A stretch of DNA of 64,000 bases. Origin: a virus. Lineage: Duplodnaviria; Caudoviricetes. A model generated the notes under the pieces. It worked only from the letters and a program-made list of their open reading frames with translations. It did no database searches and had not been told where the DNA came from. Where the stretch lies: the IMG/VR virus record IMGVR_UViG_3300028833_000074, positions 64,001-128,000 of that record; one strand, 5' to 3'. Of this stretch, positions 16,865 through 63,586 are shown one piece after another; the first letter of the stretch is position 1; each line of letters opens with the position of its first letter. Both the position numbers and the translations under genes were made by a program.

Positions 16865-17060
16865 CTAATTTTAATATTTTTCCTTGAGAAATATCCATAA
16901 AAATTTCAGTAGGTAATATTTCTCTCACTTCATAATTTTGTTTTATTGCTTTATCAATATCATCAACACTAATAATACCTATAAACTCATCATGTTCATA
17001 GATTAACAAAAAATTTTTCCACAACTCCCATACACTAATTCCTAATAAATCTTTATACAT
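16848..17060 (-). CDS. Hypothetical protein
   Basis: GGAGG RBS before ATG 17060; overlaps both neighbours. Confidence 0.5.
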   Translation of the reverse strand: MYKDLLGISVWELWKNFLLIYEHDEFIGIISVDDIDKAIKQNYEVREILPTEIFMDISQGKILKLGDSSD

Positions 17061-17712
17061 TTTCTTCCTCCGCAACACGTTTGAAATTTGCGTAAACATC
17101 TTTAGCAAACACAATTGATGTTTTCTTTAAGGCCATCAAATGTAATCTTTTCTTATTATATGTTGGATTTTTATATTTATATTGCGTTTTATAATAACGA
17201 TATAATTCTGCAAACTCATCATCGTTTGCAATTAATTTACTCGTACATCGTATGATTGCTTTTTTTAAATCTTCACAGTAATCAATAGGGTCTTGTTTTT
17301 TATTGGCAACAATCTGCCCCCTACTGTATTTCTTAATTTTAGAATAATAATTTTTATTTCTTACAACTGGAGATAAACCAGCATATGATAAAAAATGCTT
17401 ACGATTTTGAAAACGCTGAATGTCACCTATCTCGACAATAAGTTCGGCAGCATCATATAAATTAATATAAGGTACTTTGCGTAAAAAACTCATATATTCT
17501 TCTGAAAAAAATAAAATATTTTGTATTTCATCTCTTAACATTTGCAAAGGACTATCAAAAGGTAATATACTAATATTTTCAAGCCTATTATATCTTGATG
17601 ATGATATATCACCAAAACTTATTAAACGATGTTTATTACTCTTTTGTGCATTAAAAACAGTTTTATTCGTGTTAAATAATATTGATAAAACTTTACGCTC
17701 ACTTGAATCCAT
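17053..17712 (-). CDS. IS110-related Nop-domain protein lacking a nuclease domain (TasA-like)
   Basis: 'LRKVPYINLYDAAELIVEIGDIQRFQNRKHFLSYAGLSP' matches the IS110 C-terminal/Nop domain. There is no DEDD RuvC domain and no catalytic SSG loop. The C-terminus reads 'LYRYYK...KRLHLMALKK...FAKDVY'. Confidence 0.7.
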   Translation of the reverse strand: MDSSERKVLSILFNTNKTVFNAQKSNKHRLISFGDISSSRYNRLENISILPFDSPLQMLRDEIQNILFFSEEYMSFLRKVPYINLYDAAELIVEIGDIQRFQNRKHFLSYAGLSPVVRNKNYYSKIKKYSRGQIVANKKQDPIDYCEDLKKAIIRCTSKLIANDDEFAELYRYYKTQYKYKNPTYNKKRLHLMALKKTSIVFAKDVYANFKRVAEEENV

Positions 17713-18351: not shown

Positions 18352-19281
18352 CTATAAATATAAATTAGCGCCACAACAATCAGATGAATTACAAATACCA
18401 TTACACTTTTGTGATTCACAACTTGAAAACAATATATCTTCTCTACCAAATAGATAGGAAACTTGATGTTCTTCTTCTACACAATGTTGAAATTTTTCAT
18501 CAGATAAATGATTTCGCAAAATCTCAACAACTTCTTCTTCAGTATATCCATCATCACGTAAATATATAATTAATTCACGACGCTCATGATATCCTAAATT
18601 TGCATTAGATAGAAGATAATCAATACAAGGTGGAAACTTGGCACTAAAATGAATATCATTCAATATAACTTCGTGTTTAGTTGTGATAATATCTTCATCC
18701 AATGGCAACAAAGAAACATAATCTTGACCGATAATATAATCGGCATGTCCATTGTATGATTTTGCCATTTGACAAATGTCTTCGTAAGATAATTCACATA
18801 ATTGATGATATTCAATTGGTATGCAATATAAACCAGTTTTTAAATTTTTAGTGCCAAGTATACGAGAAACTCTACGAGTATCTCCAACAACAGATGGGTC
18901 CGAATATGTGTTGGTTCTCCGATGTAAATTTTTTACCCACTTTTTTATCGCCAATTTAGGTTGTTTTAATTGTTCGTTATGAGTTAAAATAAAAATATGA
19001 AAGCCTCGACCACTAAAACGAATATAAAATTTTACACCCAAATCGTAAAGATAAAACGCAACCTTACGTACATCATCATAGAACTTTAAATCTGTATCAT
19101 AATCAAAATCAAGAAAAATTTTATCAATATAAGCATTTGGTGCTATTGGTTCTCCAACATAAGAATATACAGATTGATAAATATTTTTTTTTCCATTATA
19201 TAATGCAATAAATTTATCAATATCAGCATCATCTGTAATTGTTATTCTTATTTTGGGAATAAAAATTTCTTTAACCATCAT
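18352..19281 (-). CDS. Fused archaeo-eukaryotic primase (PriS catalytic domain + PriL Fe-S domain)
   Basis: AEP motifs 'FLDFD', 'FSGRGFH', 'DTRRVSR'; PriL-CTD motifs 'FPPCI', 'HERR', 'SC...C...C'. Confidence 0.85.
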   Translation of the reverse strand: MMVKEIFIPKIRITITDDADIDKFIALYNGKKNIYQSVYSYVGEPIAPNAYIDKIFLDFDYDTDLKFYDDVRKVAFYLYDLGVKFYIRFSGRGFHIFILTHNEQLKQPKLAIKKWVKNLHRRTNTYSDPSVVGDTRRVSRILGTKNLKTGLYCIPIEYHQLCELSYEDICQMAKSYNGHADYIIGQDYVSLLPLDEDIITTKHEVILNDIHFSAKFPPCIDYLLSNANLGYHERRELIIYLRDDGYTEEEVVEILRNHLSDEKFQHCVEEEHQVSYLFGREDILFSSCESQKCNGICNSSDCCGANLYL

Positions 19282-19667
19282 TCTAACATCTCGATATAAT
19301 GTTCAAATTCATTGTCTAAAACCATTTCGGCTAATTTAATCGCAAATTGACATCCGGGGTCAAGCATTAGGCCACTATTATAATCAATCACATAAAATGG
19401 CCATTCGGTACATGCATCGAATCTCGTTTCATATTCATTACATGTTTTACCATTAAAATATTGACAATCAATTGTGCGACAACAATCACCACATTGCTTA
19501 CAAAATTCTGGATGTTCTTGCACCATATTATATGTGAAATAAGAATCTGGTGCTTGTAATAAAACTGTTTCAATAATATCTGCTACCATTTCATCCCCTA
19601 TATTAGGATATTTAAGTGTGTATTTGTCTAACATTTTTTTTATAAATTTTAAATGATTAATAGGCAT
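19278..19667 (-). CDS. YkgJ-like zinc/iron-chelating cysteine-cluster protein
   Basis: CKQCGDCC...C...C..YETR...C..WPF. Confidence 0.8.
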   Translation of the reverse strand: MPINHLKFIKKMLDKYTLKYPNIGDEMVADIIETVLLQAPDSYFTYNMVQEHPEFCKQCGDCCRTIDCQYFNGKTCNEYETRFDACTEWPFYVIDYNSGLMLDPGCQFAIKLAEMVLDNEFEHYIEMLE

Positions 19668-20383
19668 TAAAAACCACCTTCTTCTTCACACACTTCTTTA
19701 TAAGCACAATAATCACATAAGAATTGCCTTTCTGCATAAAAATTTTCTTCTTTAATTTCTTCTCGAATAAAGTTTAATAATTCAATAGTGGCTTCTTCAT
19801 CTGCATGCGTAACAAAAGAACCCTTCTCTTGTGATTCGCAAAAATTAACGAATTTCATGCCACCATCTTTAGTGAATACAATGCCAGCAGATATAACCTT
19901 TTTGTTAGGAAATTCTTTTTCAACTAATAATTTATAATAAGTCAATTCTAACCGATAATTTTTAATAGGTTTACTTTTACCGGTTTTATAATCAATAATG
20001 ATTAAATCGCCAAACTCATCTTCTAAAATTAAATCACATAATCCAGAAAAATTAATATCTTCATTATATAAATATTCCTCTGCACTAAATACTGTATATG
20101 TTTCTTTTTCATCATGAAAAACTTCATCATAAAAACGTGCTAAATTAAATAAATGTGTTTTAAGATTAAATTTAGAACCACTTTCATTATATATTTTTAT
20201 TAATTGTTCATAAAAATCTCCATCTATATCGATATTTTTAATAAATGTTTCCGCAATATTATGTACATCAGTACCTAATTGCATAAATTCATTAGGTTGT
20301 TGTTTAAGTTTATCTATATACATATATTTAAATTCTCTACGACATTTTAAAAAACTATTGACAGCACTTTTACTTAACTTCAT
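19667..20383 (-). CDS. PD-(D/E)XK Cas4/RecB-like exonuclease
   Basis: 'LSKS...C', 'GTDVH', 'GLCD', 'IIDYKTG' and C-terminal 'CDYCAYKEVC' Fe-S ligands. Confidence 0.9.
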   Translation of the reverse strand: MKLSKSAVNSFLKCRREFKYMYIDKLKQQPNEFMQLGTDVHNIAETFIKNIDIDGDFYEQLIKIYNESGSKFNLKTHLFNLARFYDEVFHDEKETYTVFSAEEYLYNEDINFSGLCDLILEDEFGDLIIIDYKTGKSKPIKNYRLELTYYKLLVEKEFPNKKVISAGIVFTKDGGMKFVNFCESQEKGSFVTHADEEATIELLNFIREEIKEENFYAERQFLCDYCAYKEVCEEEGGF

Positions 20384-20838
20384 AATATCTCTCCCTCTTC
20401 ATCAATTAATTCCCATACAATCTCTGCCGATATCCAATCTTCAAAATAACCTAAATTAATATAATGACTATGATAATACAATCTAAAAGGTTTATTGCGC
20501 TTTTGATTGATATGACTAATGTATTTAATTTTAGATGTATCCCATAAATCATATTTACGCAAGCCACCATCAGAATTATACTGATAATCACCACCCTTGG
20601 TAAAATTATATTCTGGTGAATATAAATCAATATAATATCGTTCTTTGTCATTCAATTCCGAAACAGCACATTCACATTCAACACGTAATTGATATCGAAT
20701 GGGGTCATCTTGTATTAATATATCAATTGGTTGACGCCCATGTGCATGATTTCTGTGTCTTTTATAAATATTACGACTTTGCCCAATATACAAAACCTTC
20801 ATTGTTTTTATATCAACATACGAATATATACCAATCAT
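20380..20838 (-). CDS. GIY-YIG endonuclease (homing-endonuclease-like)
   Basis: 'IGIY...LYIGQS..I.KR...H', 'E..YI', 'YNFTKGG'. Confidence 0.85.
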   Translation of the reverse strand: MIGIYSYVDIKTMKVLYIGQSRNIYKRHRNHAHGRQPIDILIQDDPIRYQLRVECECAVSELNDKERYYIDLYSPEYNFTKGGDYQYNSDGGLRKYDLWDTSKIKYISHINQKRNKPFRLYYHSHYINLGYFEDWISAEIVWELIDEEGEIL

Positions 20839-20872: not shown

Positions 20873-21592
20873 TTATATTCTTATTTGTCTAACATTATTT
20901 ATAAATGTTTCACTATCATTTGTTTGATACTCAACAAACATTCCAGTCATGATATCTCTTGGAATATCATTATAAGCATTTTGACAAGTAATATAATTTT
21001 TTACATTTTCTGGAGTACGCAATGACAAGCGTAAACATTTAGTACCCTTTTTAGATGTAAAATATGTTGCTTGTTTCACTAAAGCAATATCATTGTCGTA
21101 TTCATATGGATTGGCTTCGGTAATAGTTTCTTCAGCAATACCATTAATATAATTTGCTTCTAATACAAAACTATCATCTACACTAAAGTCAATCATGAAA
21201 TGCATATACAATCGCCCACCATATGAATGACAATTAATGATAATAACATGCCCAGTTTCAAAATATTTACCATAACGATGCACCAAAACCTCGCTACAAG
21301 AAACACTTTGATTTACATCCTTATTTTGAATATGCAAAATGGTGTATCCTTTTTTATTATCAACATCAATAATAATGCCCTTGACATATAACTCTTCTGT
21401 GTCATCTTCAATATCATTAAGGTCAGTAAGCAAATCATCATAAGGTGTTTCGATATTATCAATATATTCTTCCCTAATTGAAAAAGATAATGCAGAAAAT
21501 TCTTTAGCAAGAACATCTTTTTTAGAGTAATATTGATTTTCATTTTTAAAATAATTAATTAAGTCTGTCCTTTTTTTAATAATATCTTCCAT
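20873..21592 (-). CDS. Putative C-terminal OB-fold subunit of split DNA polymerase III alpha
   Basis: 'LAKEFSALSFSI' resembles the DnaE ExxxLGxxxS motif, followed by OB-like 'LYVKGIIIDV' and 'TSKKG..CLRLSL'; directly downstream of the DnaE core gene. Confidence 0.55.
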   Translation of the reverse strand: MEDIIKKRTDLINYFKNENQYYSKKDVLAKEFSALSFSIREEYIDNIETPYDDLLTDLNDIEDDTEELYVKGIIIDVDNKKGYTILHIQNKDVNQSVSCSEVLVHRYGKYFETGHVIIINCHSYGGRLYMHFMIDFSVDDSFVLEANYINGIAEETITEANPYEYDNDIALVKQATYFTSKKGTKCLRLSLRTPENVKNYITCQNAYNDIPRDIMTGMFVEYQTNDSETFINNVRQIRI

Positions 21593-21596
21593 AATA

Positions 21597-23387
21597 TCAC
21601 ATCAATGTTGTTTGTTTGTATTGATTTTCATGAACGATTGGGATATCATCAAAAGCACCAGCCCATATTAATGATTCTCTAACTCTTTTGTTACATGCAC
21701 GTGGAGCAATACGTAAACAAAAGTCTTCAAATGATAAAAATTTACCCTTTTTACGTTCTCGTAAGATTGCTTGAGATATTTTATTAGATACATTAGCAAC
21801 CAAATTTAAGCCCATATAAATTTTATTATCAGCAATAATTGTATTTGCTTCACTAATATTAATATTTGGTCCACATAATTCCGCATCACTTTCTTTTATC
21901 ATATTTAAAATCTCTACACGTTTTTCTTCTTCTTTAGTATTTTGGAGCATTGCAATTGCAAATTCCAAAGGATAATAAGTTTTCAACCATGCAGATTGAT
22001 AAGACACAGCAGAATATGAATAACAATGTGCTTTGTTGAAAGAATATTCAGAAGCATTTTCAATATCTGACCACAATTTCTCTGCCACTTCTTTTTGAAC
22101 ATTATTATCTATACAACCTTGTATAAATTTAGGTTTATATAAGTCAAAGGCTTCTTTTTTCTTTTTGGATACTGCTCTACGTAAATTATCTGTGTCAAGG
22201 TCAGACATACCGGCAAGTTGATTAGCCACTTGCATAATATTTTCTTGATATATCATAAGACCGAATGTATCACCAAGAATATCTTGTAAACGTGGGTCTG
22301 CATATGTAACTTCTTTCCTACCAAATTTATAATCACAATAAAGGTCTAAATAACCACTATTTCTTGCTCCGGGCCTAATAAGTGCAATAACATCCATTAA
22401 TTCGTTAAAATTATCTGGATGTATTTGCTTTGTACCAGATATACCAGCACCTTGTTCTAATTGAAAAATACCCATTGTATTACGATTGATTGTTTCAAAA
22501 ACTTTTGGGTCATCAAAATCATAAGGCAAATGAACATCATCATCAATTAATTCTAAAGTGTCCTTATGAATATCTAATACTGCCACACCAAGACAGTCAT
22601 TCTTTAGAAAACCCATCGCTTCACATTCACTACCATCATTAGAGATAACATCCTTACCAGTTACTGATATAGTTGAACAATAATTATCAATATCACCATC
22701 AAGAATTATCATACCACCGGCATGCACCCCATATGATTTAGTCAAACCGACAAGGTCATCAATATAATCTCTAACTTCAGTATGTTCATTTAAAAAATCC
22801 ATAACTTTAACATTATCATGATAATCTTCATTAGGTGCTAAATAAGATGTAACCTTGTTAACAACTTGAAAGTCAATACCTTGTCTTGCTGATAAATCCT
22901 TGATTAGCATTTTAGGTGTAAATTTTAATTTTGTTATCATTTGCCCAGTACATTCTTCACCATATATATCACGAATATATTGTAAGGCTTCATCTCTTTG
23001 TGATGAAGCAAAATCTGAATCTATATCCGGTAATGATGTCATTACTCTTGTTTTATTTAGAAAACGAGAAAATGATAATCCAAAGCCTTTGGGTGGAAGT
23101 TTAGTAATGTTTAATGCATAACAAACCACACTACCTACTGCAGAACCCCTACCGGCACTTCTAATAATACCTTTATCATCCAAGTAAGCAAGAATATAAG
23201 CAGTATTTAAAAAAAAGTTTTCCAAACCACAATCAAATATTACATTCAATTCATATTCTAATTGTGATTGGTACCATTCATCATCGCCAACACCTTTAAT
23301 GCGTAAACCACGTTGGCACATTTGTTTGATAAAATTTTTGTTATCTTCTTCAAAATCAAAAAAAGTTTGTTGCGCATCTCTTATCAT
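21597..23387 (-). CDS. dnaE: DNA polymerase III alpha (family C) catalytic core
   Basis: 'GRGSAVGS', 'LPDIDSDF', 'HAGG', 'KNDCLG', 'GIFQLE', 'IRPG', 'YQE', 'YSFNKAH'. Confidence 0.95.
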   Translation of the reverse strand: MIRDAQQTFFDFEEDNKNFIKQMCQRGLRIKGVGDDEWYQSQLEYELNVIFDCGLENFFLNTAYILAYLDDKGIIRSAGRGSAVGSVVCYALNITKLPPKGFGLSFSRFLNKTRVMTSLPDIDSDFASSQRDEALQYIRDIYGEECTGQMITKLKFTPKMLIKDLSARQGIDFQVVNKVTSYLAPNEDYHDNVKVMDFLNEHTEVRDYIDDLVGLTKSYGVHAGGMIILDGDIDNYCSTISVTGKDVISNDGSECEAMGFLKNDCLGVAVLDIHKDTLELIDDDVHLPYDFDDPKVFETINRNTMGIFQLEQGAGISGTKQIHPDNFNELMDVIALIRPGARNSGYLDLYCDYKFGRKEVTYADPRLQDILGDTFGLMIYQENIMQVANQLAGMSDLDTDNLRRAVSKKKKEAFDLYKPKFIQGCIDNNVQKEVAEKLWSDIENASEYSFNKAHCYSYSAVSYQSAWLKTYYPLEFAIAMLQNTKEEEKRVEILNMIKESDAELCGPNINISEANTIIADNKIYMGLNLVANVSNKISQAILRERKKGKFLSFEDFCLRIAPRACNKRVRESLIWAGAFDDIPIVHENQYKQTTLM

Positions 23388-23396
23388 ACTATCCCC

Positions 23397-24335
23397 CTAA
23401 TAAATTTTATTGCAAAATATTTTTTTAAATTTTTTATGTTGAGTAAAATTTGGAATAATTCTTTCATATTCTGGCATCTCAAAATAGCATTTTTCTGCAA
23501 TTTTATGTGTATTGTCAATGCAAGTTTGTATCAACTTGTCATCTTCTAATCCACTTTGATGCGCAAATTGATATGAATAGTCACTATTGCCTAAAATATT
23601 ACTAATTAATGTTTCGTTAATTTCGCTCTCTGGCTTTTTCCAATTGATAGATTGTATTTTCCTTCTTAATTTTCTGTCTTCATCCAATAGGACATGACTA
23701 TCAAAGGTATTAATAATGTATTTTGCATCTGTATCTTCATATAATTCTACCAATTTATTGTTTAAATAATTTTGAACCGGCAATCCAGTTTTATCATCAA
23801 TGTATGTTGGGTGATATTGCAATTCAACTGCAACATTGTCTTTTCCAAAGTAATCTAATAATTTATTGAAAAAATCATATGCTATATCATCTTTTTGATT
23901 TAAAAAGCATTGATTGATGTAAGAAAGTGAGCAAGCAGTTGATACAAAAATGCCTTCTGGATTGGTATTAAATAAAACTGGATGTGGCAATAAAGGTTTG
24001 TAATAAAAATGCTGTTTAACTGATAATCTTTGCATTTTTCTAATACTTTTAGCACCTCGCTCATTCATAGCCAACAAGACTAAATGATATCGTGTTTGAC
24101 CTTGTGGCTTACCCATCATAGTTTTACAATAAAATTCATTTCCAAACAATGGTTTAACATTGGTATCTTTACATGCTTCCTTTAGGGCATACCAATTCGC
24201 AAGACTACCATGGTCTGTAACTGCTACATATTCTTGCTCATAAATTTGAATTTGATTAATTAATTCTGGCACTTTAATGACAGAATCACCTACAGATGCA
24301 TCAGTATGTAAATGTAAATTTACGAAATTATCCAT
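23397..24335 (-). CDS. dnaE: PHP domain subunit of split DnaE
   Basis: 'NLHLHTDAS', 'TDHG', 'GNEFY', 'HLVLLA', 'STAC', 'DSH' and the ending 'NTHKIAEKC'. Confidence 0.9.
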   Translation of the reverse strand: MDNFVNLHLHTDASVGDSVIKVPELINQIQIYEQEYVAVTDHGSLANWYALKEACKDTNVKPLFGNEFYCKTMMGKPQGQTRYHLVLLAMNERGAKSIRKMQRLSVKQHFYYKPLLPHPVLFNTNPEGIFVSTACSLSYINQCFLNQKDDIAYDFFNKLLDYFGKDNVAVELQYHPTYIDDKTGLPVQNYLNNKLVELYEDTDAKYIINTFDSHVLLDEDRKLRRKIQSINWKKPESEINETLISNILGNSDYSYQFAHQSGLEDDKLIQTCIDNTHKIAEKCYFEMPEYERIIPNFTQHKKFKKIFCNKIY

Positions 24336-24344
24336 ACTCTCACC

Positions 24345-24545
24345 TTAAAATTTGGCTATATCTTTAATCCCAAATAAAATATCTGGTTCCGGAAAATCAA
24401 TACAAGTAATTTCATTATTGATATCTCGATGAACTACAATGCCATATTTAGCAGTTTCAACTGTAACCGAATTTTTACTTGGGATTTTATATATAGACCA
24501 TATATCATTTGTTTGATTATATATAATATCGTACTTTTGCATCAT
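24345..24545 (-). CDS. Small hypothetical protein (DUF2283-like pattern)
   Basis: 66 aa 'YN...DIWSIY...IVVHRD.NNEITCIDF'; operon-coupled. Confidence 0.45.
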   Translation of the reverse strand: MMQKYDIIYNQTNDIWSIYKIPSKNSVTVETAKYGIVVHRDINNEITCIDFPEPDILFGIKDIAKF

Positions 24546-25438
24546 TTTTTATTCCCTTTAGCATTTGCTTTTGGGAATATTAAATCATACACTTTATCAT
24601 ATTGTAAATCAATTGTTTCTTCTTTATTATTTGCGCTCATAAATACTTGTTTTTTACCAACAGAGAAGATATTAGACCTATCTTTTCTAATAGTTGCAAC
24701 ATAATCTTCTACATTAACATCTTCTACACTTGGTATTTTTTCGATTGTTAATCTCATAGAACATTCATCTATAAGTCTTTGTTTAACAGAAGATAAATCC
24801 TTACCTTGCTCTACAAGTTCTGGTATAAAATCAGAATGAGTTACATAAATGACCGGAGTATCAAGACTCATGAATGCTGAAGTACATTCTCTAAAAAATT
24901 TATTTCTAATTTTCCATACACTTAATTGTGCGCCTTGGTCAGCATCAAGATTCTTTTCTAATCTCATTCTTGCTTCAGCATATTCAAGTAAAAATGAAAC
25001 ACCATCAAGAATAACACCCTTAACATGAATATCTTGTTCTAATGCTTGTCTAACTGCTTCGGCTGCAGATGTAACATTATTAACAATAGTTTCTTCATCC
25101 TTAACAGTTGCACCTTTCTCATTTTCGGTAAAAGCATCTGGATTATATATTCTAATATTACCAGATTGATATTCATCTAAATAAAATGATTGAATGATTT
25201 CTTCACCGCTATTATCAACACTAATATAAACAATAATTTCATCATCCTTTAAATCATAAGTTAATAAATAAAGTGCTAAAGAAGTTTTACCAGTACCATT
25301 CTCACCACTTAATAATATTTTCTTATTAATTTTATCATTTATCTTTTGTTTTTTTGCATCAAAAATTTGTCCAAAAATCTCATCCTTCATTGATTCTTTT
25401 GGTTTACGTGTTTTCTCTCCCATATTACGAATTCCCAT
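24542..25438 (-). CDS. AAA_24/Sak4-like RecA-fold ATPase
   Basis: Walker A 'GENGTGKT', Walker B 'VILDG', 'YVTH'. Confidence 0.8.
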   Translation of the reverse strand: MGIRNMGEKTRKPKESMKDEIFGQIFDAKKQKINDKINKKILLSGENGTGKTSLALYLLTYDLKDDEIIVYISVDNSGEEIIQSFYLDEYQSGNIRIYNPDAFTENEKGATVKDEETIVNNVTSAAEAVRQALEQDIHVKGVILDGVSFLLEYAEARMRLEKNLDADQGAQLSVWKIRNKFFRECTSAFMSLDTPVIYVTHSDFIPELVEQGKDLSSVKQRLIDECSMRLTIEKIPSVEDVNVEDYVATIRKDRSNIFSVGKKQVFMSANNKEETIDLQYDKVYDLIFPKANAKGNKK

Positions 25439-25628: not shown

Positions 25629-25788
25629 CTGTAATTGTATTCAGTTCATCAATAATAATCCCCTTTGTAATGATATGTCTCGCTACGACTAAATCATTTT
25701 CAAGAATTTGAATTCGAGAACGCACTTCTCGAGTGCGTATCTCAAATAAAGTATAAGGGTTTGATAAATCTTCTGGGGTATATCCCAT
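25564..25788 (-). CDS. Small helical hypothetical protein
   Basis: ORF in the coupled operon. Confidence 0.45.
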   Translation of the reverse strand: MGYTPEDLSNPYTLFEIRTREVRSRIQILENDLVVARHIITKGIIIDELNTITDDYVERKSLFTRVAQTDDNSD

Positions 25789-26747
25789 TATAAATCATCC
25801 TCAATTGGTAAAAATCCACCACAATTGTACCTTAAAGTACCATCTCTACGTGGTGTAACATTCATAAATAAGATACCATCAATACCATCGGTAATGTTTA
25901 ATCCAGCAAAAGATGTTGGATGCACCCATACGATAAAGTCATCATCTTCTGTTTCAAAGTTGATTGAGATATCTCTTGTTGGGTCTTCATTAGGGAAGAT
26001 ATCCATACAAGTTGCTCTAACACCAATAAAAGCGTTTTTATCGTATTTTTTATCTTCAAGGTATTTTAATCCATCAATCATACTGTCAAATATGATATCT
26101 CCAAAGAATTGTTCAACATATCCAAGATAAATTTTAACTGCATCTTCATCATATGCATCTACATCTTCAAGAACAGTTGCCCCATTGAAATAAAGAATGT
26201 TTGCGTTTTTAACAAGTTGACCAGATTTTTTACCTTCTTTAAAAGTAAATTTGGATTCTTTACAAACCGGTAATACTTTGTCCATTGCATAACTACCGAT
26301 TGATACATCTCTTGCGACAATACCTTCATCGGTTTGGAAGATACCTACAGCACTACCATAAATTGCTTTCTTATCAATGACTTCACCTTTACTAAATCCT
26401 TGGGTATGAATATATTCGCCTTGTTCATTAGCCATACCCTTTTTGATAGCATTTTCAAGACCATTTTCCTTGACATATCTGTCTACTTGGTTCCAAGCAT
26501 AAAGATTGTATTCTTGGTCTGGGAATCTCATGATAATGAAACCATCCATTCTTTGACCAGATTGCACTAATCTTCTTAAACTACCACGTGTTTTTCTCAA
26601 AGAACGAATTATTTTCTTGTTTTCATCCATGTCTTCTGGCATACCTTCAAAAATTTCTTGATAGATTCTTTCCATTTCTGATTCATTTATACCATGTTTT
26701 TCCGCAAATTCTTGATTTTTTTGTTTCTCTGTGTCAATACTACTCAT
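25788..26747 (-). CDS. First gene of the replication operon; putative ssDNA-binding/OB-fold protein
   Basis: Strong GGAGGT RBS at ATG 26747, beta-rich C-terminus with acidic tail, and position next to a Sak4-like ATPase. Function inferred from context only. Confidence 0.4.
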   Translation of the reverse strand: MSSIDTEKQKNQEFAEKHGINESEMERIYQEIFEGMPEDMDENKKIIRSLRKTRGSLRRLVQSGQRMDGFIIMRFPDQEYNLYAWNQVDRYVKENGLENAIKKGMANEQGEYIHTQGFSKGEVIDKKAIYGSAVGIFQTDEGIVARDVSIGSYAMDKVLPVCKESKFTFKEGKKSGQLVKNANILYFNGATVLEDVDAYDEDAVKIYLGYVEQFFGDIIFDSMIDGLKYLEDKKYDKNAFIGVRATCMDIFPNEDPTRDISINFETEDDDFIVWVHPTSFAGLNITDGIDGILFMNVTPRRDGTLRYNCGGFLPIEDDL

Positions 26748-45817: not shown

Positions 45818-46693
45818 TTATAAATCACTCCTATTGTTTTCATTGTATAATTGGAAATATTTCGGCTCTAATCTGTTATATAGTTTTACAACCATATTCT
45901 TTTCTATCAAATTGTACACTACACTATATATGGTATACTCAAATTTATCTTGCACATCTGTAACGCCATAAATTTGCTCAACGCTGCCAAGCAAATGCAT
46001 TGTTTCATTAATGGGGCTAAAGATATCTTCGCAATTATTTAAGCAACCAAGCAAGTAAGTAAGACGCTCGAAACGCTCATCTGATGAGTATCCACCGGCA
46101 AGTCCATCGGTTTTGCGCCCCCTTGAGTACCATACTGGGTCATTGCCATAATTAGATACACTATCTCCAATCATACTTAAGCCGAATTCACAAATATCTT
46201 TTTGCAATGGATATGGGGGATTATTGGTCATCACATCATTATGATATACTTTTAAGCCATCAATGGTTTGCTCAACAATGATAGCATCGTTCTCATCACA
46301 AATAAACCAATGCATATCAGTATTTTGTATTGTATCTGAATAGTTCTCATTGGTGATATTTACATCAATAAGCCATTCTTCAACTGTAGCAACATCCCTA
46401 AATTGTCCTAATATTTCAAAAACAAATTGATATGCTGGTATATTTATCATAAATTCTTCTGGCTCATTATAGTGAGCATTACCAGTAAACGCTAATGCCC
46501 CACAAAATAAGCCACATTCATTAATCCCATCATATAGAAGGGGATATTCTTCGGCTATTCCACTACATATTCCTAAAATTGCGAATCCACTATCGTATTC
46601 GTCTCTTTTGATTTTTATTATTTGCTCTTGGTAGGACATTTCATAGTCAAAATTCCTACCGACGCAATGTTTATATTTCAATGCGGTACACAT
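45818..46693 (-). CDS. Choloylglycine hydrolase / linear amide C-N hydrolase (bile salt hydrolase-penicillin V acylase, Ntn family)
   Basis: N-terminal M-C-T nucleophile, 'GRNFDY', 'DGINECGL', 'HWFI.D', 'MTNNP', 'LAGGYSSDERFER', 'YTIYS'. Confidence 0.9.
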   Translation of the reverse strand: MCTALKYKHCVGRNFDYEMSYQEQIIKIKRDEYDSGFAILGICSGIAEEYPLLYDGINECGLFCGALAFTGNAHYNEPEEFMINIPAYQFVFEILGQFRDVATVEEWLIDVNITNENYSDTIQNTDMHWFICDENDAIIVEQTIDGLKVYHNDVMTNNPPYPLQKDICEFGLSMIGDSVSNYGNDPVWYSRGRKTDGLAGGYSSDERFERLTYLLGCLNNCEDIFSPINETMHLLGSVEQIYGVTDVQDKFEYTIYSVVYNLIEKNMVVKLYNRLEPKYFQLYNENNRSDL

Positions 46694-48131
46694 CTTATTC
46701 ACCCACTTTAAAAAAAATCACCATAACAATAATCAATGACATCAATAACACAAAAAATAACCATATATCACTTATCATCAATAGATATAACAGTAATTCC
46801 CACATTTAATTATCCTCTCTTTCTTTTAATTCATCATCAATCATTTGCTTAAGATTTTGCAAATCATCAACAGTAAAATATTCTAAAGGCAGATATTTCA
46901 ATTGCATTGTAATGGCAAACATAAGAAATCGACTATCAAGGGTTGTTATTTCATCATATAATGTAATGCAATCATCGATACGATTTACTTCATCAACAAA
47001 ACATTCCCAACTAACTGCTGTATCCCATAAGAATTTTTGACCCCAGTTTGTATCTAATGCAATATTCATCTGCTCTTCAAGCAAAATAGCCCAATCAGAT
47101 AAATATTTGTCCAATTGCTCTTGTGTTAAATCACTCATTCATATCACCTTGCATCTTCTTTAATTTTCGTATTTCATCTTCTTTTTCATTTAGTATTTTT
47201 ACAACTTGTTTGCCTAATCTTTGATGCTTAATTGATGTCATAATAGCACCATCATTTTCATTATCAACTATGAATCCAGTTGATTCCTCATATTCATACC
47301 TATCCATATCAATCACTCAAGTTAATAATAACACGACATATATAGAAAATAAACCAAAAATATATTATTATGAAAACCAGCCAACTTAATCCCATAAGAT
47401 TGAAGACATATGTTGCCAAGTATATGCCACTTCCTAATACCACGCACATAAACAACAATACAAGCAAGTAAGCAAGAAGTTTAATCCAATCCATTTTATT
47501 TCAACTCCACTTTTCTGCTGTTTAGGTCATCGACCCATTTTTTAAGTCTATAATCACGAACAACATATTTGTCATGTCCATCATATGATGCAAACGCAAC
47601 TATAACATGAGTATCTCTATCTATAATGACCCATCGCTTATTGTCAACATCATCTTTAAGGGCATATCTCTCTTGCCATTGATAAAAATCATTTACCATT
47701 TTATCAACTGCAAACTTGTTATCAGTAATATATGCACTTGTATCATCAATTGACTCTAAAAAATCTACAAAGTATTTCGCTTCCCAATCCCATAAAGAAT
47801 TTAACGCTCTTTCGTTTTCTATTGTATGTTCCATATTATCTTCTCTTAAACCATAAATAATCATATCTTCTATGAAAATCATATTTTGCTGTATGAATCA
47901 TCGGATGTTTTACCCAATGTCCGCCGGCATTTTCATCTTCGGATTCAAAAAATAAATCTAAATCATCAATTTTAAACCATTCTGTAGCAAATGTTTTATA
48001 TGGTCGATTCTGACTTCTAAACATTGGGCAACTAAATGGCCAATTATATGATGTTCGTTCATCCCAATAATCCTTTAATTTGATGCGATTACAAAATCTC
48101 GCCCAAGCATAAAGGTAATCTCGGTCTTTTC

Positions 48132-53992: not shown

Positions 53993-56203
53993 TTACTGAC
54001 CACCTAATTTTTGGATGGCTTCGACACTTTTTGGTTTTATGCCTACAAAAATGACTTCACCATTTCTTGTCTTTGTGTGATATTCAGATGGGAGATTCAA
54101 GGCTTCTTTGACTTCCTTGATGAAAGTTTGGCTATTTCCTAACTTGATTGTTGGCTCAAGCATTTTATCAAGCAAGTAATTATGAATGAAAGTATGCATT
54201 TCAGTATATGTTACTGATTCTTCTTGGTCTATTTTACCTTTATCATCATATACTGGAGCGAAATGCTCTTTAACGAAATATCGCTCTGGATATGTGCATT
54301 TCTCTATCCTATTTTTCTTTTCTTGGGCAGAAATAGATGGAATAGGGATAGATTTCTTATCAAGTTCCAGTTCGATATAGGTTCTTGTTGCTTGTTGGAC
54401 TAACCATTGCTTACATTCATCGGTTATTAGGTCTTGCCAACGATATCCCAAGTCCTTTATTGATTTCTTTGGTATTATGACAAGTACTCGCCTAAAAACG
54501 CCCTCTCCAGCAAATTTATCGTACATATTTCGTGGAAATTGGTTACCTATAAACCAACATCTTGGTACAGTTTCTGATGGAATATTAATGGTATTTTTAT
54601 TTTTCTTTTCTACTGCAAGGTTACTTCCAGTACTGATTGTTTTCAATATCTCTGCAAAATCGTTTTTCGCCCCTTGTATCTCATCTATGATGATGCAATC
54701 ATTTTCACCGAACATAGATAAACCGAATTTTTCATCTGAAAGTTTGGTGACTATTTGGGATTCCCATTGATAAAATATTTCGCAGATAGCCTTAATGAAT
54801 GTTGTTTTTCCAGTTTCACCTTTAGAGAGCAAGAATATGGATTCTTGTCTTTGTGTATACCCTTTATCATACAAGCAACAACCCAAGTAAGCAAGTAGGG
54901 CTTCTCTATCTTGTTTTGTAAAGCATTCGTTGAAGATATGCTCCATTGCTCCACCATCAATATCTTCATCAAGATATAATTCAGTCTTTGTGTTTCTCAA
55001 TGGTAACAAAGGCACATTATAGTTTAATTTCTCTATCTTCTGCTCTTCGATGTTGTAAAAGCAGTTATTGAACCCTACAAGGTTTTGATTTTTGTACTGT
55101 TTCCCTTGTATCCAGTTAGGTATTTTCTCAAAAATATCGGTAGCAGAGATAAGTATGCCATCCTTATATTGAGTGCTATTGGCAGTTTCCTTGATAAAGG
55201 TTGTGTTATTTTGTATTTGTTTAACTATATCCCTATCGTGCTTAAAAGGTACAAATCTGCCTTCCCCATTGTTAAAATAATATTCATTTGTGGTCGGCTC
55301 TTCGCACAATCCTATTTGCTTTTCCAATTCCTTGCACAATGCAGAAAGCATATCATTAGGAGAGAAAGAAGAAACTACAATATTACCTTGATATGTCCAA
55401 ATATTCTTCAAATTAGATAATAAGAAATACAATCTTTTAAATTCATTAATGGTTTGATAATATAATGAGTTTTTCACCTTTTCCATATTCCTTGTTGGTG
55501 GAATCCTTGTTCGTGGAATCTTTTTCCATTCCTTGATGTTTGCTATATCATCTTCAAGTTTTGCTATATTCTTTTCCAATGTGCTTACTGTAGTAATGTT
55601 ATATAGGTCAATCACCTTATTATCTACATACTTTTCCCAATCATCGCCATATTCTTCTTTCTTTTCTTCGACAGATAGGAGCAAATCAATGTTTGCCTTT
55701 TCGTTATCAATTGCATTTTGCTTTAATTTGATTTGTTCATTTAACATATTGGTTATGGTAGATTTGATAAATGTACGATTCGGATATTTCTGAACCAATT
55801 CGTAAAAATGGTCGAAAACGATATTATCAACATTCGGACACCCATTAATGCTCTGAATACTATATTGCTCATTGAAATCTTTAGCCATTCTTTGCCATAA
55901 TGCCTTTTTATCATCGGAAATCTTCGGTATCTTGGTGTGTTGCATATCTCTCAATTGCATTTTTTCATACTTTTTATTCGCTTTTTTTAAGGCTTCATTC
56001 TCTTCCCTTAACTTTTTATTCCTTGCAGTAATGCTTTTATTGTTTTTTCTATATTGCTCCAAGATTGATGGAGAGCCACCCCTAACTTGTTGCAAAAGTT
56101 TAGCATTCTGCTTCTTTAGGGCTTCATAGTTCGCCTTATCATACTCTTCTTGTAATTCATTATATAAATCTTCATCTATTTGATTGAAGTCTTCTTCTCC
56201 CAT
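53993..56203 (-). CDS. SF3 (D5/P4-type) helicase with coiled-coil N-terminus
   Basis: 'VGFNNC' D5_N-like segment, Walker A 'KGETGKTT', Walker B 'IIIDE', motif C 'FIGN', arginine finger 'FRR'. Confidence 0.85.
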   Translation of the reverse strand: MGEEDFNQIDEDLYNELQEEYDKANYEALKKQNAKLLQQVRGGSPSILEQYRKNNKSITARNKKLREENEALKKANKKYEKMQLRDMQHTKIPKISDDKKALWQRMAKDFNEQYSIQSINGCPNVDNIVFDHFYELVQKYPNRTFIKSTITNMLNEQIKLKQNAIDNEKANIDLLLSVEEKKEEYGDDWEKYVDNKVIDLYNITTVSTLEKNIAKLEDDIANIKEWKKIPRTRIPPTRNMEKVKNSLYYQTINEFKRLYFLLSNLKNIWTYQGNIVVSSFSPNDMLSALCKELEKQIGLCEEPTTNEYYFNNGEGRFVPFKHDRDIVKQIQNNTTFIKETANSTQYKDGILISATDIFEKIPNWIQGKQYKNQNLVGFNNCFYNIEEQKIEKLNYNVPLLPLRNTKTELYLDEDIDGGAMEHIFNECFTKQDREALLAYLGCCLYDKGYTQRQESIFLLSKGETGKTTFIKAICEIFYQWESQIVTKLSDEKFGLSMFGENDCIIIDEIQGAKNDFAEILKTISTGSNLAVEKKNKNTINIPSETVPRCWFIGNQFPRNMYDKFAGEGVFRRVLVIIPKKSIKDLGYRWQDLITDECKQWLVQQATRTYIELELDKKSIPIPSISAQEKKNRIEKCTYPERYFVKEHFAPVYDDKGKIDQEESVTYTEMHTFIHNYLLDKMLEPTIKLGNSQTFIKEVKEALNLPSEYHTKTRNGEVIFVGIKPKSVEAIQKLGGQ

Positions 56204-62311: not shown

Positions 62312-63586
62312 TTAGACATTCCAACACCAAGAAAGAGCGATGTGTTGCCTTTTAGCCCAATTTTTTATGAATTTAAGTTCTTCATCAGTCGGTTTACTAT
62401 CTTCTTTCCCATATGCTTGGAGCAATACACCCTTTTTAACTTCTATGGTTACCAAAGGAGTATCCAAGTCTTTAGTTTCTCTCAAAAAGAGAATGCAAGT
62501 TTTACCATCACACATTGGTTGAATATAAGACCTAACACAATGTTTAAGTGTATCGGCTTCTACTTCAATCTCTGTTGAATGTTTTGGTACAACAATAGAA
62601 TATTTTTGTGTTTGATATTCATAATGTTGATTCTTTGCAGACATTCTTGCGAAACTTATTTCATTGATACTCTGTTTCATAATTGCAAAATCTTTTTTAG
62701 TAATCAGAAATTGTGTAGCGAAAAATTTTGGATATTTTTCCACTTTTACTGATTTCCCTTTTTTTAGAGAATATTGCATATTCAGATAGTCATAATAATG
62801 TCTGCCATTAAAGAGATATTCAATATCAATACTTTCCACTCTTTTCATTCTATCTAAAAACCTAATAAAAGCCTTAATATCTAAATTAAAATCTTCTATA
62901 GTTTCTAATATAGAATCTCTAATGGAAGATGGATGTTCATTATTGAATGCATATTCTAAACAGTTTTCAATTCTTTGATAAGCAGAATAACTAACTCTTT
63001 TACATCCAAATAAATCTGAAAATTGAGGCATATGGCTATATTCAAGCAATTCGTGATATATTTTTAATTGCTTTACATTATAACTATGCATTACATACTG
63101 AAATTCTTTCATACTTAATTGCATATTGTATTTTTTAATTATCTTTAACATTTGCTTGTCAAATTCTGATGGTTCAAAATCGAATAGAAAATGATGATAT
63201 GTATAAATTTCGCCATCATTTCTTTCCATCACTTCCAAATGCTCATCAACATCCTTAAAATGCATATCAATCGCATCCCATTTCTCAAATGTTAAAGTAG
63301 GCTCAAATGTAGCAAAATGCTCAATGTATCTGACTGGAGATTTATATCTCCTTAATAGTTTATGTGATTTGTTAAACCAAAATAATCTTGCAAATTTATG
63401 CTCTTTTGTAACTAAAGTGCAATCTGTAAACCATTTTGTGATATTCGCTACTTTTACTGGAGTTACTTTAACTCCAGTTGTTTTATAGTGATTAATTCGT
63501 TCAAAATTGCCATTTTTAAGATTGTATCTATATTGTTTAGGGTCATTTTCTTTTTCAAGATAAATGAATTCCTTATCTTTTGTCAT
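62312..63586 (-). CDS. PcfJ-like domain protein
   Basis: 'YYDYL.M', 'P.....I..EA..LKHCVRSY', 'ILFLR', 'P.VTIEV', 'Q.YG'. Confidence 0.85.
   Translation of the reverse strand: MTKDKEFIYLEKENDPKQYRYNLKNGNFERINHYKTTGVKVTPVKVANITKWFTDCTLVTKEHKFARLFWFNKSHKLLRRYKSPVRYIEHFATFEPTLTFEKWDAIDMHFKDVDEHLEVMERNDGEIYTYHHFLFDFEPSEFDKQMLKIIKKYNMQLSMKEFQYVMHSYNVKQLKIYHELLEYSHMPQFSDLFGCKRVSYSAYQRIENCLEYAFNNEHPSSIRDSILETIEDFNLDIKAFIRFLDRMKRVESIDIEYLFNGRHYYDYLNMQYSLKKGKSVKVEKYPKFFATQFLITKKDFAIMKQSINEISFARMSAKNQHYEYQTQKYSIVVPKHSTEIEVEADTLKHCVRSYIQPMCDGKTCILFLRETKDLDTPLVTIEVKKGVLLQAYGKEDSKPTDEELKFIKNWAKRQHIALSWCWNV

What the first reader, a model, noticed from the sequence alone, without database searches (positions are those of the whole stretch)
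20873..24335. Bacterial family-C replicase (DnaE) split into three genes in an archaeal virus
Seen: the PHP domain, the catalytic core and a putative OB-fold part are separate ORFs in native domain order. Each has its own RBS (GGTGA, GGGGAT, GTGAT) and stop codon, and there are no intein motifs. Known: archaea replicate with PolB/PolD, DnaE is bacterial, and the best-known split DnaE (cyanobacteria) is rejoined by a split intein. Inference: a non-covalent heterotrimeric polymerase paired with an archaeal-type primase and an SF3 helicase, i.e. a chimeric replisome.
Basis: partly seen in the sequence, partly recalled or inferred. Interest (0 to 1): 0.72.

Follow-up and report, generated by a model that had tools for sequence, protein, structure and literature searches.

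The report
Three-gene DnaE polymerase, methanogen virus
A 152-kb virus that most likely infects gut or rumen methane-producing archaea encodes its only recognisable DNA polymerase, a bacterial-type (family C, DnaE) enzyme, as three separate genes that probably reassemble without protein splicing. The split is real and conserved, and is a further step beyond a two-gene layout already on record for one cultured methanogen virus.

Summary
Three adjacent minus-strand genes encode, in native DnaE order:
- a PHP domain (312 aa) with all nine metal ligands;
- the palm-fingers-(HhH)2 core (596 aa) with its catalytic aspartates;
- a 239-aa piece with no Pfam hit.

I show that the third piece is the DnaE C-terminal module. 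Its profile matches the C-terminal ends of one-gene and two-gene DnaE proteins in related viruses, and its model holds an OB fold.

The stops are not errors:
- A strain 95% identical in DNA has identical junctions in four independent assemblies.
- 118 of the 120 best core homologues are stand-alone cores.
- Some relatives carry methylase or homing-endonuclease genes between the pieces.
- dN/dS is 0.03-0.07 for each piece.

There are no inteins. A complex model supports binding of the core to the C piece (0.63 against 0.00 in controls).

An archaeal host is supported by a pseudomurein-binding repeat protein and by synteny with Methanobacterium virus PhiF1.

PhiF1 already has a separate PHP gene, so this is a new variant of a known kind. 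The scan has found the same layout before in related genomes.

The parts
23397..24335 (-). Gene 1: stand-alone PHP domain (312 aa), predicted metal-dependent 3'-5' proofreading exonuclease subunit
   Evidence: Pfam PHP E 6e-28; phrog_405 positions 42-339. Aligns with the PHP domains of Taq DnaE and PolC. The nine metal ligands H8 H10 D17 H42 E67 H84 C135 D212 H214 are conserved in all relatives checked. dN/dS 0.03.
23388..23399 (-). Junction 1: TAG stop of the PHP gene plus a 9-nt spacer carrying GGGGAT; PHP and core are in the same frame here
   Evidence: Sequence. Identical in three independent assemblies of a strain with 95.4% DNA identity. In relatives the two genes overlap out of frame (L005, L008, L010, L013). 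The junction falls in the variable PHP-palm linker of one-gene forms.
21597..23387 (-). Gene 2: DnaE catalytic core (596 aa): palm, thumb, fingers, (HhH)2
   Evidence: Pfam DNA_pol3_alpha, finger and HHH_6. E 1e-86 to Taq DnaE 387-945 and E. coli DnaE 321-891. Catalytic motifs PDIDSDF at 120 and KNDCLG at 262. dN/dS 0.03.
21593..21599 (-). Junction 2: TGA stop of the core plus a 4-nt spacer; the next gene is in the +1 frame
   Evidence: Sequence. Identical in four independent assemblies. It falls just after the conserved AGAFD helix, before the segment that in one-gene forms leads into the OB domain.
20873..21592 (-). Gene 3: detached DnaE C-terminal module (239 aa): N-terminal helices, OB fold, second small beta barrel
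   Evidence: 31 stand-alone homologues of 190-258 aa. The profile hits the C-termini of fused DnaE proteins. hhalign 95% to the PhiF1 ORF57 C-terminus. AF2 pLDDT 87. OB match to M. tuberculosis DnaE1 residues 990-1099, Z 12.3, rmsd 2.4, 96 aligned, tied with other OB folds. Matches in the viral structure library. dN/dS 0.07.
20380..20838 (-). Context: small GIY-YIG endonuclease-like gene directly downstream of gene 3, variable between near-identical strains
   Evidence: Pfam GIY-YIG E 1e-3, below the cut-off. It is 152 aa in L019 and L021 but replaced by a 127-aa ORF in L018. In most relatives gene 3 overlaps the PD-(D/E)XK gene directly.
19667..20383 (-). Context: PD-(D/E)XK (Cas4-like) nuclease of the replication module
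   Evidence: Pfam PDDEXK_1 E 9e-24; PHROG exonuclease. Found in the same place in PhiF1 and all relatives.
18352..19281 (-). Context: PriL-like (primase large subunit Fe-S domain) protein
   Evidence: Pfam DNA_primase_lrg E 8.5e-7, 29 bits against a cut-off of 22.4; PHROG primase 4e-9.
24542..25438 (-). Context: RecA/KaiC-fold ATPase (Sak4-like)
   Evidence: Pfam ATPase (KaiC) 1e-7; PHROG Sak4-like 3e-11.
25788..26747 (-). Context: 319-aa multi-OB protein, probable RPA-like ssDNA-binding protein
   Evidence: No Pfam or PHROG hit. AF2 pLDDT 92. Foldseek best hits are archaeal RPA, RPA70, Teb1 and HIN domains.
53993..56203 (-). Context: 736-aa primase-helicase-like protein (D5-type NTPase)
   Evidence: Pfam DUF5906 E 3.5e-10, above the cut-off; PHROG 'DNA primase' families, C-terminal parts.

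Best explanation
The virus makes a family C (DnaE-type) replicative DNA polymerase from three separately translated polypeptides. The ancestral gene was cut at two inter-domain linkers.

- Gene 1 gives a PHP subunit with a complete metal site, the likely 3'-5' proofreader.
- Gene 2 gives the palm-thumb-fingers-(HhH)2 catalytic core.
- Gene 3 gives the C-terminal module. Its N-terminal helices dock on the (HhH)2 region of the core, and its OB fold would hold the single-stranded template.

The three genes are co-transcribed (spacers of 9 and 4 nt). Each has its own Shine-Dalgarno-like motif, start and stop. The products assemble non-covalently, with no intein splicing and no need for recoding.

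Shown here: that the three genes are real, what each one is, that they are conserved and under selection, that gene 3 is homologous to the DnaE C-terminus, and that fused and split relatives form an evolutionary series.

Inferred: physical assembly (modelled only for core plus C piece), exonuclease activity of the PHP piece, and that this enzyme replicates the viral genome in a pseudomurein-walled methanogen (probably Methanobrevibacter).
For: **Identity of the pieces.** Searches show the PHP ligands, the catalytic aspartates, and E 1e-86 to the DnaE proteins of Taq and E. coli.

**Gene 3 is the DnaE C-terminus.**
- Its profile matches the last ~220-230 residues of proteins whose Pfam domains end with HHH_6: core+C forms of 798-817 aa, a 1128-aa PHP+core+C form, and a 1271-aa UDG+PHP+core+C form.
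- hhalign gives probability 95% against the PhiF1 ORF57 C-terminus.
- The top viral structure matches cover both domains: a 1176-aa protein (the length of PhiF1 ORF57) at TM 0.68, then actinophage DnaE polymerases.

**The split is real.**
- A strain with 95.4% DNA identity (160 substitutions, no indels) has identical junctions, in three independent assemblies for junction 1 and four for junction 2.
- 118 of the 120 best core homologues are 576-607 aa.
- There are 31 stand-alone gene-3 homologues, down to 43% identity.
- In L005, L006 and L008, methylase genes (0.3-3.6 kb of inserted DNA) lie between core and C piece. In L015 a GIY-YIG/NUMOD3 endonuclease gene lies between PHP and core.
- dN/dS is 0.03, 0.03 and 0.07.

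**A series of fused and split forms shares one synteny:** one gene (L012, L014), two genes (L004, L013, PhiF1) and three genes (the window, L010).

**Assembly.** Complex prediction of core plus C piece scored 0.63 against a best control of 0.00 in 3 controls.
- That mark was reached by 58 of 80 solved complexes and 2 of 110 mismatched pairs. These counts hold only roughly, because my own alignments were used.
- The runs agree in at least 87% of contacts, and the partner's pLDDT is at least 86.
- The interface joins core residues 487-507, 525-531, 553 and 570-584 to C-piece residues 4-39 and 75-94.
- The pass may partly reflect memory of solved single-chain DnaE structures.

**Only polymerase found.** There is no PolB or PolA match in the 152-kb genome.

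**Host.**
- A pseudomurein-binding repeat scores 37.8 bits against a cut-off of 24.9 in a 369-aa protein.
- The best phage-database E-value and the module synteny point to the Methanothermobacter virus PhiF1.
Against: - No experiment or RNA or protein data exists, and the read-level check could not be run.
- PHP-core binding was not modelled.
- In several relatives gene 3 is separated from the core gene by other genes and is translationally coupled to the PD-(D/E)XK nuclease gene instead. It might therefore act partly on its own.
- The C module has no detectable sequence similarity to the C-terminus of a bacterial-phage DnaE (Moorella phage) or to any solved structure. Its match to the DnaE OB domain is tied with many generic OB folds.
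- No sliding clamp (PCNA_N, beta-clamp domain 3) was found in the genome, so how processivity is achieved is open.
- The host is inferred, not demonstrated.
Confidence: 0.75

Rival explanations
1. The C piece has left the polymerase. After fission, gene 3 became an independent OB-fold DNA-binding factor, for example a partner of the PD-(D/E)XK nuclease in recombination or end processing. The working polymerase would then be PHP plus core only.
For: Gene 3 overlaps the PD-(D/E)XK gene in most relatives and stays next to it when methylase genes separate it from the core. The E. coli alpha subunit truncated at residue 917 was stable enough to crystallise (2HQA; the chain is listed), and from established knowledge it retains polymerase activity. 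Foldseek matches of gene 3 are led by tandem-OB DNA binders.
Against: The complex model places its conserved N-terminal helices against the core's (HhH)2 region. Fused core+C forms persist inside the same clade, at 58% identity to the window's C piece. The gene order DnaE then PD-(D/E)XK also holds when the C module is fused (L013, PhiF1). A separate RPA-like protein already fills the ssDNA-binding role.
Confidence: 0.15
2. Recoding restores a fused protein: read-through of the in-frame TAG at junction 1, a +1 shift at junction 2, or both, would produce a single chain.
For: In the window and in L004, PHP and core are in the same frame and separated by one TAG.
Against: In L005, L008, L010 and L013 the two genes overlap out of frame. 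A homing-endonuclease gene (L015) or methylase genes (L005, L006, L008) sit between the pieces in relatives. Each piece has its own SD-like motif and start. At junction 2 the +1 frame carries a TGA four codons upstream of the ATG.
Confidence: 0.05
3. The host is a bacterium (for example a gut Clostridia member), so this is an ordinary phage DnaE and not an archaeal-virus one.
For: The only hit among species-representative genomes is a 146.8-kb contig in a MAG labelled 'Clostridia bacterium'. GC of 29% fits many gut Firmicutes.
Against: That contig has the length of a whole virus genome and itself encodes two pseudomurein-binding repeats above the Pfam cut-off, so it is most likely mis-binned. 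The window's genome also encodes such a repeat. The best E-value among deposited phages and the gene order match a cultured Methanothermobacter virus.
Confidence: 0.04
4. The stops are sequencing or assembly errors, or the gene is decaying.
For: None found. Reads could not be inspected.
Against: The junctions are identical in independent assemblies of a diverged strain. More than 100 clusters of stand-alone cores exist. dN/dS is 0.03-0.07 in every piece, and the active-site residues are intact.
Confidence: 0.01

Closest known systems
Methanobacterium virus PhiF1 ORF58/ORF57 (GenBank MK994522, annotated 'putative DNA polymerase III DnaE superfamily protein'; host Methanothermobacter thermautotrophicus)
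   Same: DnaE-type polymerase in a virus of a pseudomurein-walled methanogen. The PHP domain is on its own ORF and ends at the same place (28% identity). The core is 37% identical. The C-terminal module is homologous to gene 3. The module order is the same: DnaE, PD-(D/E)XK, primase-like, ERCC4, Transposase_20-like, NrdD.
   Different: The PhiF1 PHP ORF carries an N-terminal uracil-DNA glycosylase domain. Its second ORF holds an intein-like insert in the palm and keeps the C module fused, giving two pieces rather than three. Its two annotated ORFs overlap by 80 nt.
Bacterial DnaE1 with an active PHP proofreader (Thermus aquaticus 2HPI/3E0D; M. tuberculosis DnaE1 5LEW/7PU7; PMC5636811, PMC3919608)
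   Same: Domain order PHP, palm-thumb-fingers, (HhH)2, OB. All nine PHP metal ligands and the catalytic aspartates are present. The OB fold superposes (Z 12.3).
   Different: The bacterial enzyme is a single chain of about 1100-1200 residues that works with the beta clamp and tau. Here there are three chains, no clamp or tau gene was found, and the second C-terminal domain has no detectable sequence similarity to the bacterial C-terminal domain.
Cyanobacterial split DnaE with the Npu/Ssp DnaE split intein (mentioned in PMC3919608)
   Same: A DnaE encoded by separate genes.
   Different: There the halves are ligated by protein trans-splicing, and the break lies inside the catalytic region. Here there are no intein halves and no room for them, two breaks, and both lie at domain linkers.
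E. coli Pol III core (alpha-epsilon-theta) and the alpha(1-917) crystallisation construct (2HQA/2HNH)
   Same: Proofreading is carried by a separate subunit bound to the polymerase. A stable polymerase fragment ends close to where junction 2 lies: the core aligns to E. coli residues 321-891.
   Different: The E. coli proofreader is a DEDD exonuclease, not the PHP domain, and its truncation is man-made.
Phage genes fragmented around free-standing homing endonucleases (e.g. Aeromonas phage Aeh1 nrdA-a/mobE/nrdA-b; from my own knowledge, also named in earlier finding e1-5324391)
   Same: An essential replication-related enzyme is encoded in pieces that reassemble. Homing-endonuclease genes sit in or beside the breaks (L015: GIY-YIG/NUMOD3 between PHP and core; the window: GIY-YIG-like gene after gene 3).
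   Different: In the window itself both junctions are empty (9 and 4 nt). It is not shown that an endonuclease caused either break.

Membership tests
Family C DNA polymerase, DnaE type (Pol III alpha) | N-terminal PHP domain with the nine metal-binding residues | tested here: met
   Pfam PHP 6e-28. H8 H10 D17 H42 E67 H84 C135 D212 H214 align with the Taq DnaE ligands and are conserved in 9 of 9 relatives.
Family C DNA polymerase, DnaE type (Pol III alpha) | Pol-beta-like palm with three catalytic aspartates, plus fingers and (HhH)2 | tested here: met
   DNA_pol3_alpha, DNA_pol3_finger and HHH_6. PDIDSDF and KNDCLG are aligned to Taq PDIDTDF and KMDFLG.
Family C DNA polymerase, DnaE type (Pol III alpha) | OB domain C-terminal to the core (DnaE order, not the N-terminal position of PolC) | tested here: met
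   Gene 3 follows the core and has an OB barrel at residues 68-135. Homologous modules are fused after HHH_6 in relatives. Weak PF01336 hits at the same place in P0048 and L015.
Family C DNA polymerase, DnaE type (Pol III alpha) | Tau-binding C-terminal domain | tested here: inconclusive
   A second beta barrel (168-237) occupies that position and matches the C-terminal ends of actinophage DnaE models. There is no sequence match to solved bacterial DnaE, and the domain was not searched alone.
Family C DNA polymerase, DnaE type (Pol III alpha) | One polypeptide carrying all domains | tested here: not met
   Three genes with their own starts and stops. It therefore works like a DnaE but departs from the canonical single-chain form.
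Family C DNA polymerase, DnaE type (Pol III alpha) | Beta-clamp-binding motif and a cognate clamp | tested here: inconclusive
   No DNA_pol3_beta_3 or PCNA_N match in the genome. A conserved tail Q-[SAT]-[RKT]-L-[IVM]-COOH ends the split cores, near where E. coli alpha has QADMF (PMC3201878). Binding was not tested.
Split-intein DnaE (cyanobacterial type) | N- and C-intein halves flanking the break | tested here: not met
   No intein Pfam hit in any of the three proteins, although inteins are detected in relatives by the same library. The terminal extensions are only 12-15 residues.
PhiF1-like replication module of methanogen tailed viruses | Separate PHP gene upstream of the DnaE core, followed by PD-(D/E)XK, primase-like, ERCC4, Transposase_20-like, dUTPase/DCD and NrdD genes | tested here: met
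   Window genes compared with PhiF1 and with L006, L008, L010, L013.
Virus of a pseudomurein-walled archaeon (Methanobacteriales) | Pseudomurein-specific cell-wall-binding or lytic protein | tested here: met
   PMBR repeat, 37.8 bits against a cut-off of 24.9, in a 369-aa protein of the same genome. The Peptidase_C71 search was uninformative because its controls were silent. No CRISPR or culture evidence.

The most novel reading that the evidence does not exclude
The fissions are adaptive rather than neutral. Cutting DnaE at its linkers created new free termini, and these evolved short conserved peptides: YQ[SQ]TF at the core's N end, and Q-[SAT]-[RKT]-L-[IVM]-COOH at its C end. The C-end peptide lies at the position of the bacterial internal clamp-binding motif. 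Through these peptides a bacterial-type replicase could be plugged into the archaeal host's PCNA or other host replisome parts. The detached PHP piece would act as an exchangeable proofreading subunit. Together this would be a natural conversion of a bacterial polymerase to archaeal accessory factors.
Probability: 0.2. Interest if true: 0.8.

Novelty: new variant of a known kind. Interest (0 to 1): 0.55.

Why it matters
Surveys of viral replication proteins concluded that family C polymerases are confined to bacteriophages (PMC3201878, PMC4889955). Here a large and abundant group of gut and rumen methanogen viruses uses a DnaE-type enzyme as its only recognisable polymerase. The group comprises more than 100 clusters at 90% identity, many on contigs of 140-158 kb.

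This raises the question of how a bacterial-type replicase gains processivity in a cell that offers PCNA rather than the beta clamp.

The group also contains one-gene, two-gene and three-gene forms, some with other genes between the pieces. That is a clean natural experiment on where a multi-domain polymerase can be cut and still work. It defines minimal self-assembling modules: a trans-acting PHP proofreader, a catalytic core and an OB module, which could be tested and used in vitro.

The interest is tempered. The two-gene layout is already visible in the PhiF1 GenBank record, and this scan has met the three-gene form before.

Tried and rejected
- **Read-level check.** Independent assemblies served instead.
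- **Peptidase_C71 (PeiW/PeiP) search of the genome.** No hit, but no control rang either, so it is uninformative.
- **Sequence search of the gene-3 profile against PDB.** Only chance-level hits, with C1q at E 0.07.
- **hhalign of gene 3 against the Moorella phage DnaE C-terminus.** No similarity, E 0.38.
- **Pairwise BLAST of the PHP piece against PhiF1 ORF57.** Nothing; the PHP homologue is ORF58.
- **The 319-aa protein upstream as a hidden sliding clamp.** The model looks like an RPA-type multi-OB protein, not a clamp; the Atlas feature search gave only unnamed clusters.
- **PCNA_N, beta-clamp domain 3, UDG, PolB and PolA families in the genome.** All absent.
- **A canonical PIP box (Qxx[LIVM]xx[FYW][FYW]) in the core tails.** 0 of 118. 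Only L005 has QTTLGFF.
- **Literature.** No paper in the held library links DnaE with archaeal or methanogen viruses or describes a non-intein three-way split. The 2023 compendium of methanogen viruses is not held, so I cannot exclude that it mentions this polymerase.
- **Tree labelling.** In the tree I labelled the intein-bearing P0156 (1000 aa) as two-piece, but its length fits a split core plus an intein. The count of architecture changes is therefore an upper bound.

Full report
**What is there.** The window is bases 64001-128000 of a 152,284-bp IMG/VR virus record with about 29-30% GC. On the minus strand, three ORFs lie head to tail:
- 24335-23397, 312 aa;
- 23387-21597, 596 aa;
- 21592-20873, 239 aa.

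Pfam assigns PHP to the first (E 6e-28). It assigns DNA_pol3_alpha, DNA_pol3_finger and HHH_6 to the second, and nothing to the third. PHROGs places the first two on successive parts of one 1190-position DNA polymerase family.

The core matches the DnaE proteins of Thermus aquaticus and E. coli at E 1e-86, covering E. coli residues 321-891. It carries the catalytic motifs PDIDSDF and KNDCLG.

The PHP piece keeps all nine metal ligands (H8, H10, D17, H42, E67, H84, C135, D212, H214). So do its counterparts in eight relatives. In bacterial DnaE1 an intact site of this kind marks an active PHP proofreading exonuclease (PMC5636811, PMC3919608).

**The junctions.**
- PHP and core are separated by a TAG and a 9-nt spacer containing GGGGAT, and here they are in the same frame.
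- Core and third gene are separated by a TGA and 4 nt, with GTGAT just upstream of the ATG, and the third gene is in the +1 frame.
- Shine-Dalgarno-like motifs of this kind precede 43 of 120 long ORFs of the genome, against 2.9% of random positions.
- No intein family hits any of the three proteins, although the same library finds inteins in relatives. The terminal extensions are too short (12-15 residues) to hold split-intein halves.

**The third gene is the DnaE C-terminus.**
- It has 31 stand-alone homologues of 190-258 aa, down to 43% identity.
- A profile built from them, searched against 1.8 billion representative proteins, hits the C-terminal 220-230 residues of longer proteins (E 5e-28 to 2e-5).
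- Pfam shows these to be DnaE proteins in which the matched stretch follows HHH_6. They include core+C forms of about 800-815 aa, a 1128-aa PHP+core+C form, a 1271-aa UDG+PHP+core+C form, and intein-bearing versions.
- The profile aligns with the last 250 residues of PhiF1 ORF57 at hhalign probability 95% over 211 columns.
- The AlphaFold2 model (pLDDT 87) has N-terminal helices, a five-stranded OB barrel with the usual helix between strands 3 and 4, and a second beta barrel.
- The OB barrel superposes on the OB domain of M. tuberculosis DnaE1 (Z 12.3, rmsd 2.4, 96 residues), tied with PolD DP1 and many other OB folds.
- In the viral structure library, the whole model matches best a 1176-aa protein (the length of PhiF1 ORF57; TM 0.68). 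Actinophage DnaE polymerases come next.
- No similarity was found to the C-terminus of a Moorella phage DnaE. This fits the earlier remark that viral family C polymerases diverge after the fingers domain (PMC3201878).

**The split is real, old and selected.**
- Independent metagenome assemblies of a strain 95.4% identical in DNA (160 substitutions, no indels over 3463 nt) have the same three genes and letter-identical junctions. Four assemblies were compared, three of them covering junction 1.
- Against that strain, dN/dS is 0.03, 0.03 and 0.07 for the three genes.
- Of the 120 best core homologues (59-99% identity, many on contigs of 140-158 kb), 118 are 576-607 aa. One is an 830-aa core+C fusion, and one is an intein-bearing 1000-aa form.

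**A series of fused and split forms.** All of the following share the same module order: DnaE, PD-(D/E)XK nuclease, a ~129-aa gene, a PriL-like gene, ERCC4, a Transposase_20-like gene, dUTPase/DCD and NrdD.

| Layout | Where found |
|---|---|
| One gene | L012, L014 |
| Two genes: PHP, core+C | L013, L004, PhiF1 |
| Three adjacent genes | the window, L010 |
| Three genes, cytosine-methylase genes between core and C | L005, L006, L008 |
| Three genes, GIY-YIG/NUMOD3 endonuclease gene between PHP and core | L015 |

Both cuts fall in variable linkers of the one-gene forms.

A quick maximum-likelihood tree of the cores puts the window in a well-supported crown clade that is almost entirely three-piece. 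The two-piece L004 lineage sits at its base, and the three-piece L006 sits in a neighbouring, mostly two-piece clade. The architecture therefore changed more than once.

**Assembly.** A controlled complex prediction of the full core with the C piece scored 0.63, against 0.00 for the best of three controls.
- That mark was reached by 58 of 80 solved complexes and 2 of 110 mismatched pairs. These counts hold only roughly, because my own alignments were used.
- The runs agree in at least 87% of contacts, and the partner's pLDDT is at least 86.
- The contacts join the core's (HhH)2 region, including the conserved LIWAGAFD helix, to the N-terminal helices and one face of the OB barrel of the C piece.
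- This supports binding but does not show it, and it may lean on solved single-chain DnaE structures.
Its binding is inferred from the extensive PHP-palm packing in DnaE structures and from the wide conservation of the two-gene state.

**Host and replisome.**
- The same genome encodes a 369-aa protein with a pseudomurein-binding repeat above the Pfam cut-off.
- The lowest E-value among 50,697 deposited phage records, and the gene order, point to PhiF1, a cultured virus of Methanothermobacter.
- The one hit among species-representative genomes is a 146.8-kb contig in a MAG labelled Clostridia. That contig is virus-sized and itself carries pseudomurein-binding repeats, so I read it as mis-binned.
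- No PolB, PolA, PCNA, beta-clamp or UDG family was found in the genome.
- Around the polymerase lie an RPA-like multi-OB protein, a RecA/Sak4-like ATPase, a PD-(D/E)XK nuclease and a PriL-like protein. About 30 kb away in the window lies a DUF5906 primase-helicase-like protein.

**Comparison and novelty.**
- Published surveys state that family C polymerases are confined to bacteriophages (PMC3201878, PMC4889955).
- I found no paper in the held library on DnaE in methanogen viruses. One relevant 2023 paper is not held.
- The PhiF1 GenBank record already annotates two DnaE-superfamily ORFs, so the two-gene state is on record.
- The third cut, the recognition of the detached C module, and the series of fused and split forms are the new elements.
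- Earlier follow-ups of this scan reached the same conclusion on related genomes (e1-5688602, e1-5688598 for three genes; e1-4790737, e1-5753521, e1-5635009 for two).
- I rate this a new variant of a known kind, with interest 0.55.

Noticed in passing
window 21597-21640 and 23340-23387 (termini of the core gene); homologues P0070-P0189: The split cores carry conserved terminal peptides that fused forms lack. The N end of most reads MS[VI]L..YQ[SQ]TF (the window has AQQTFFDF). The C end of 118 homologues reads ..IP[IV].H.E.E.Q-[SAT]-[RKT]-L-[IVM]-COOH (the window has KQTTLM). None is a canonical PIP box; L005 alone ends in QTTLGFFK. The C tail lies near the position of the E. coli alpha internal clamp-binding motif, and it was not in the confident core-C interface.
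   Followed up: partly
L015:2539-3204 (146.8-kb relative); window 20380-20838: A GIY-YIG/NUMOD3 homing-endonuclease gene sits exactly between the PHP and core genes in L015. In the window a GIY-YIG-like gene follows gene 3; it is replaced by a 127-aa ORF in one near-identical strain. The breaks and flanks of the split polymerase are landing sites for selfish genes.
   Followed up: partly
L005:5588-7051; L006:3035-5980; L008:3626-6008: C5 cytosine methyltransferase genes, one with an intein inside it, are inserted between the core and C-piece genes in three relatives.
   Followed up: no
L002 (PhiF1) ORF57 residues ~1-440; P0053, P0060, P0156: Inteins interrupt the polymerase at several different sites in relatives: in the palm near GRGS in PhiF1 (the alignment resumes after ...VHN/S) and in P0053, between fingers and HhH in P0060, and in the split core of P0156.
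   Followed up: no
window 25788-26747 (-): A 319-aa protein with no Pfam or PHROG hit folds (pLDDT 92) into helices plus several OB barrels, most like archaeal and eukaryotic RPA. It is the probable viral ssDNA-binding protein. The ORF's real start is probably 15 codons inside the longest frame.
   Followed up: partly
GenBank JAGAIU010000011.1 (L015, G001:C64): A 146,781-bp contig in a MAG labelled 'Clostridia bacterium' (water deer caecum) is a near-complete relative of this virus and carries pseudomurein-binding repeats. It is probably a mis-binned archaeal virus.
   Followed up: yes
window 45818-46702 (-): A 294-aa protein of the choloylglycine hydrolase (bile-salt hydrolase / linear amide hydrolase) family, E 2.5e-42. 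This is an unexpected auxiliary gene for a methanogen virus.
   Followed up: no
window 17053-17712 (-): A 219-aa protein holding only the Transposase_20 (IS110 C-terminal) domain is a fixed member of the replication module in PhiF1 and all relatives seen.
   Followed up: no
window 62312-63586 (-): A 424-aa PcfJ-like protein (Pfam 1e-16), a family known from conjugative plasmids of Gram-positive bacteria.
   Followed up: no
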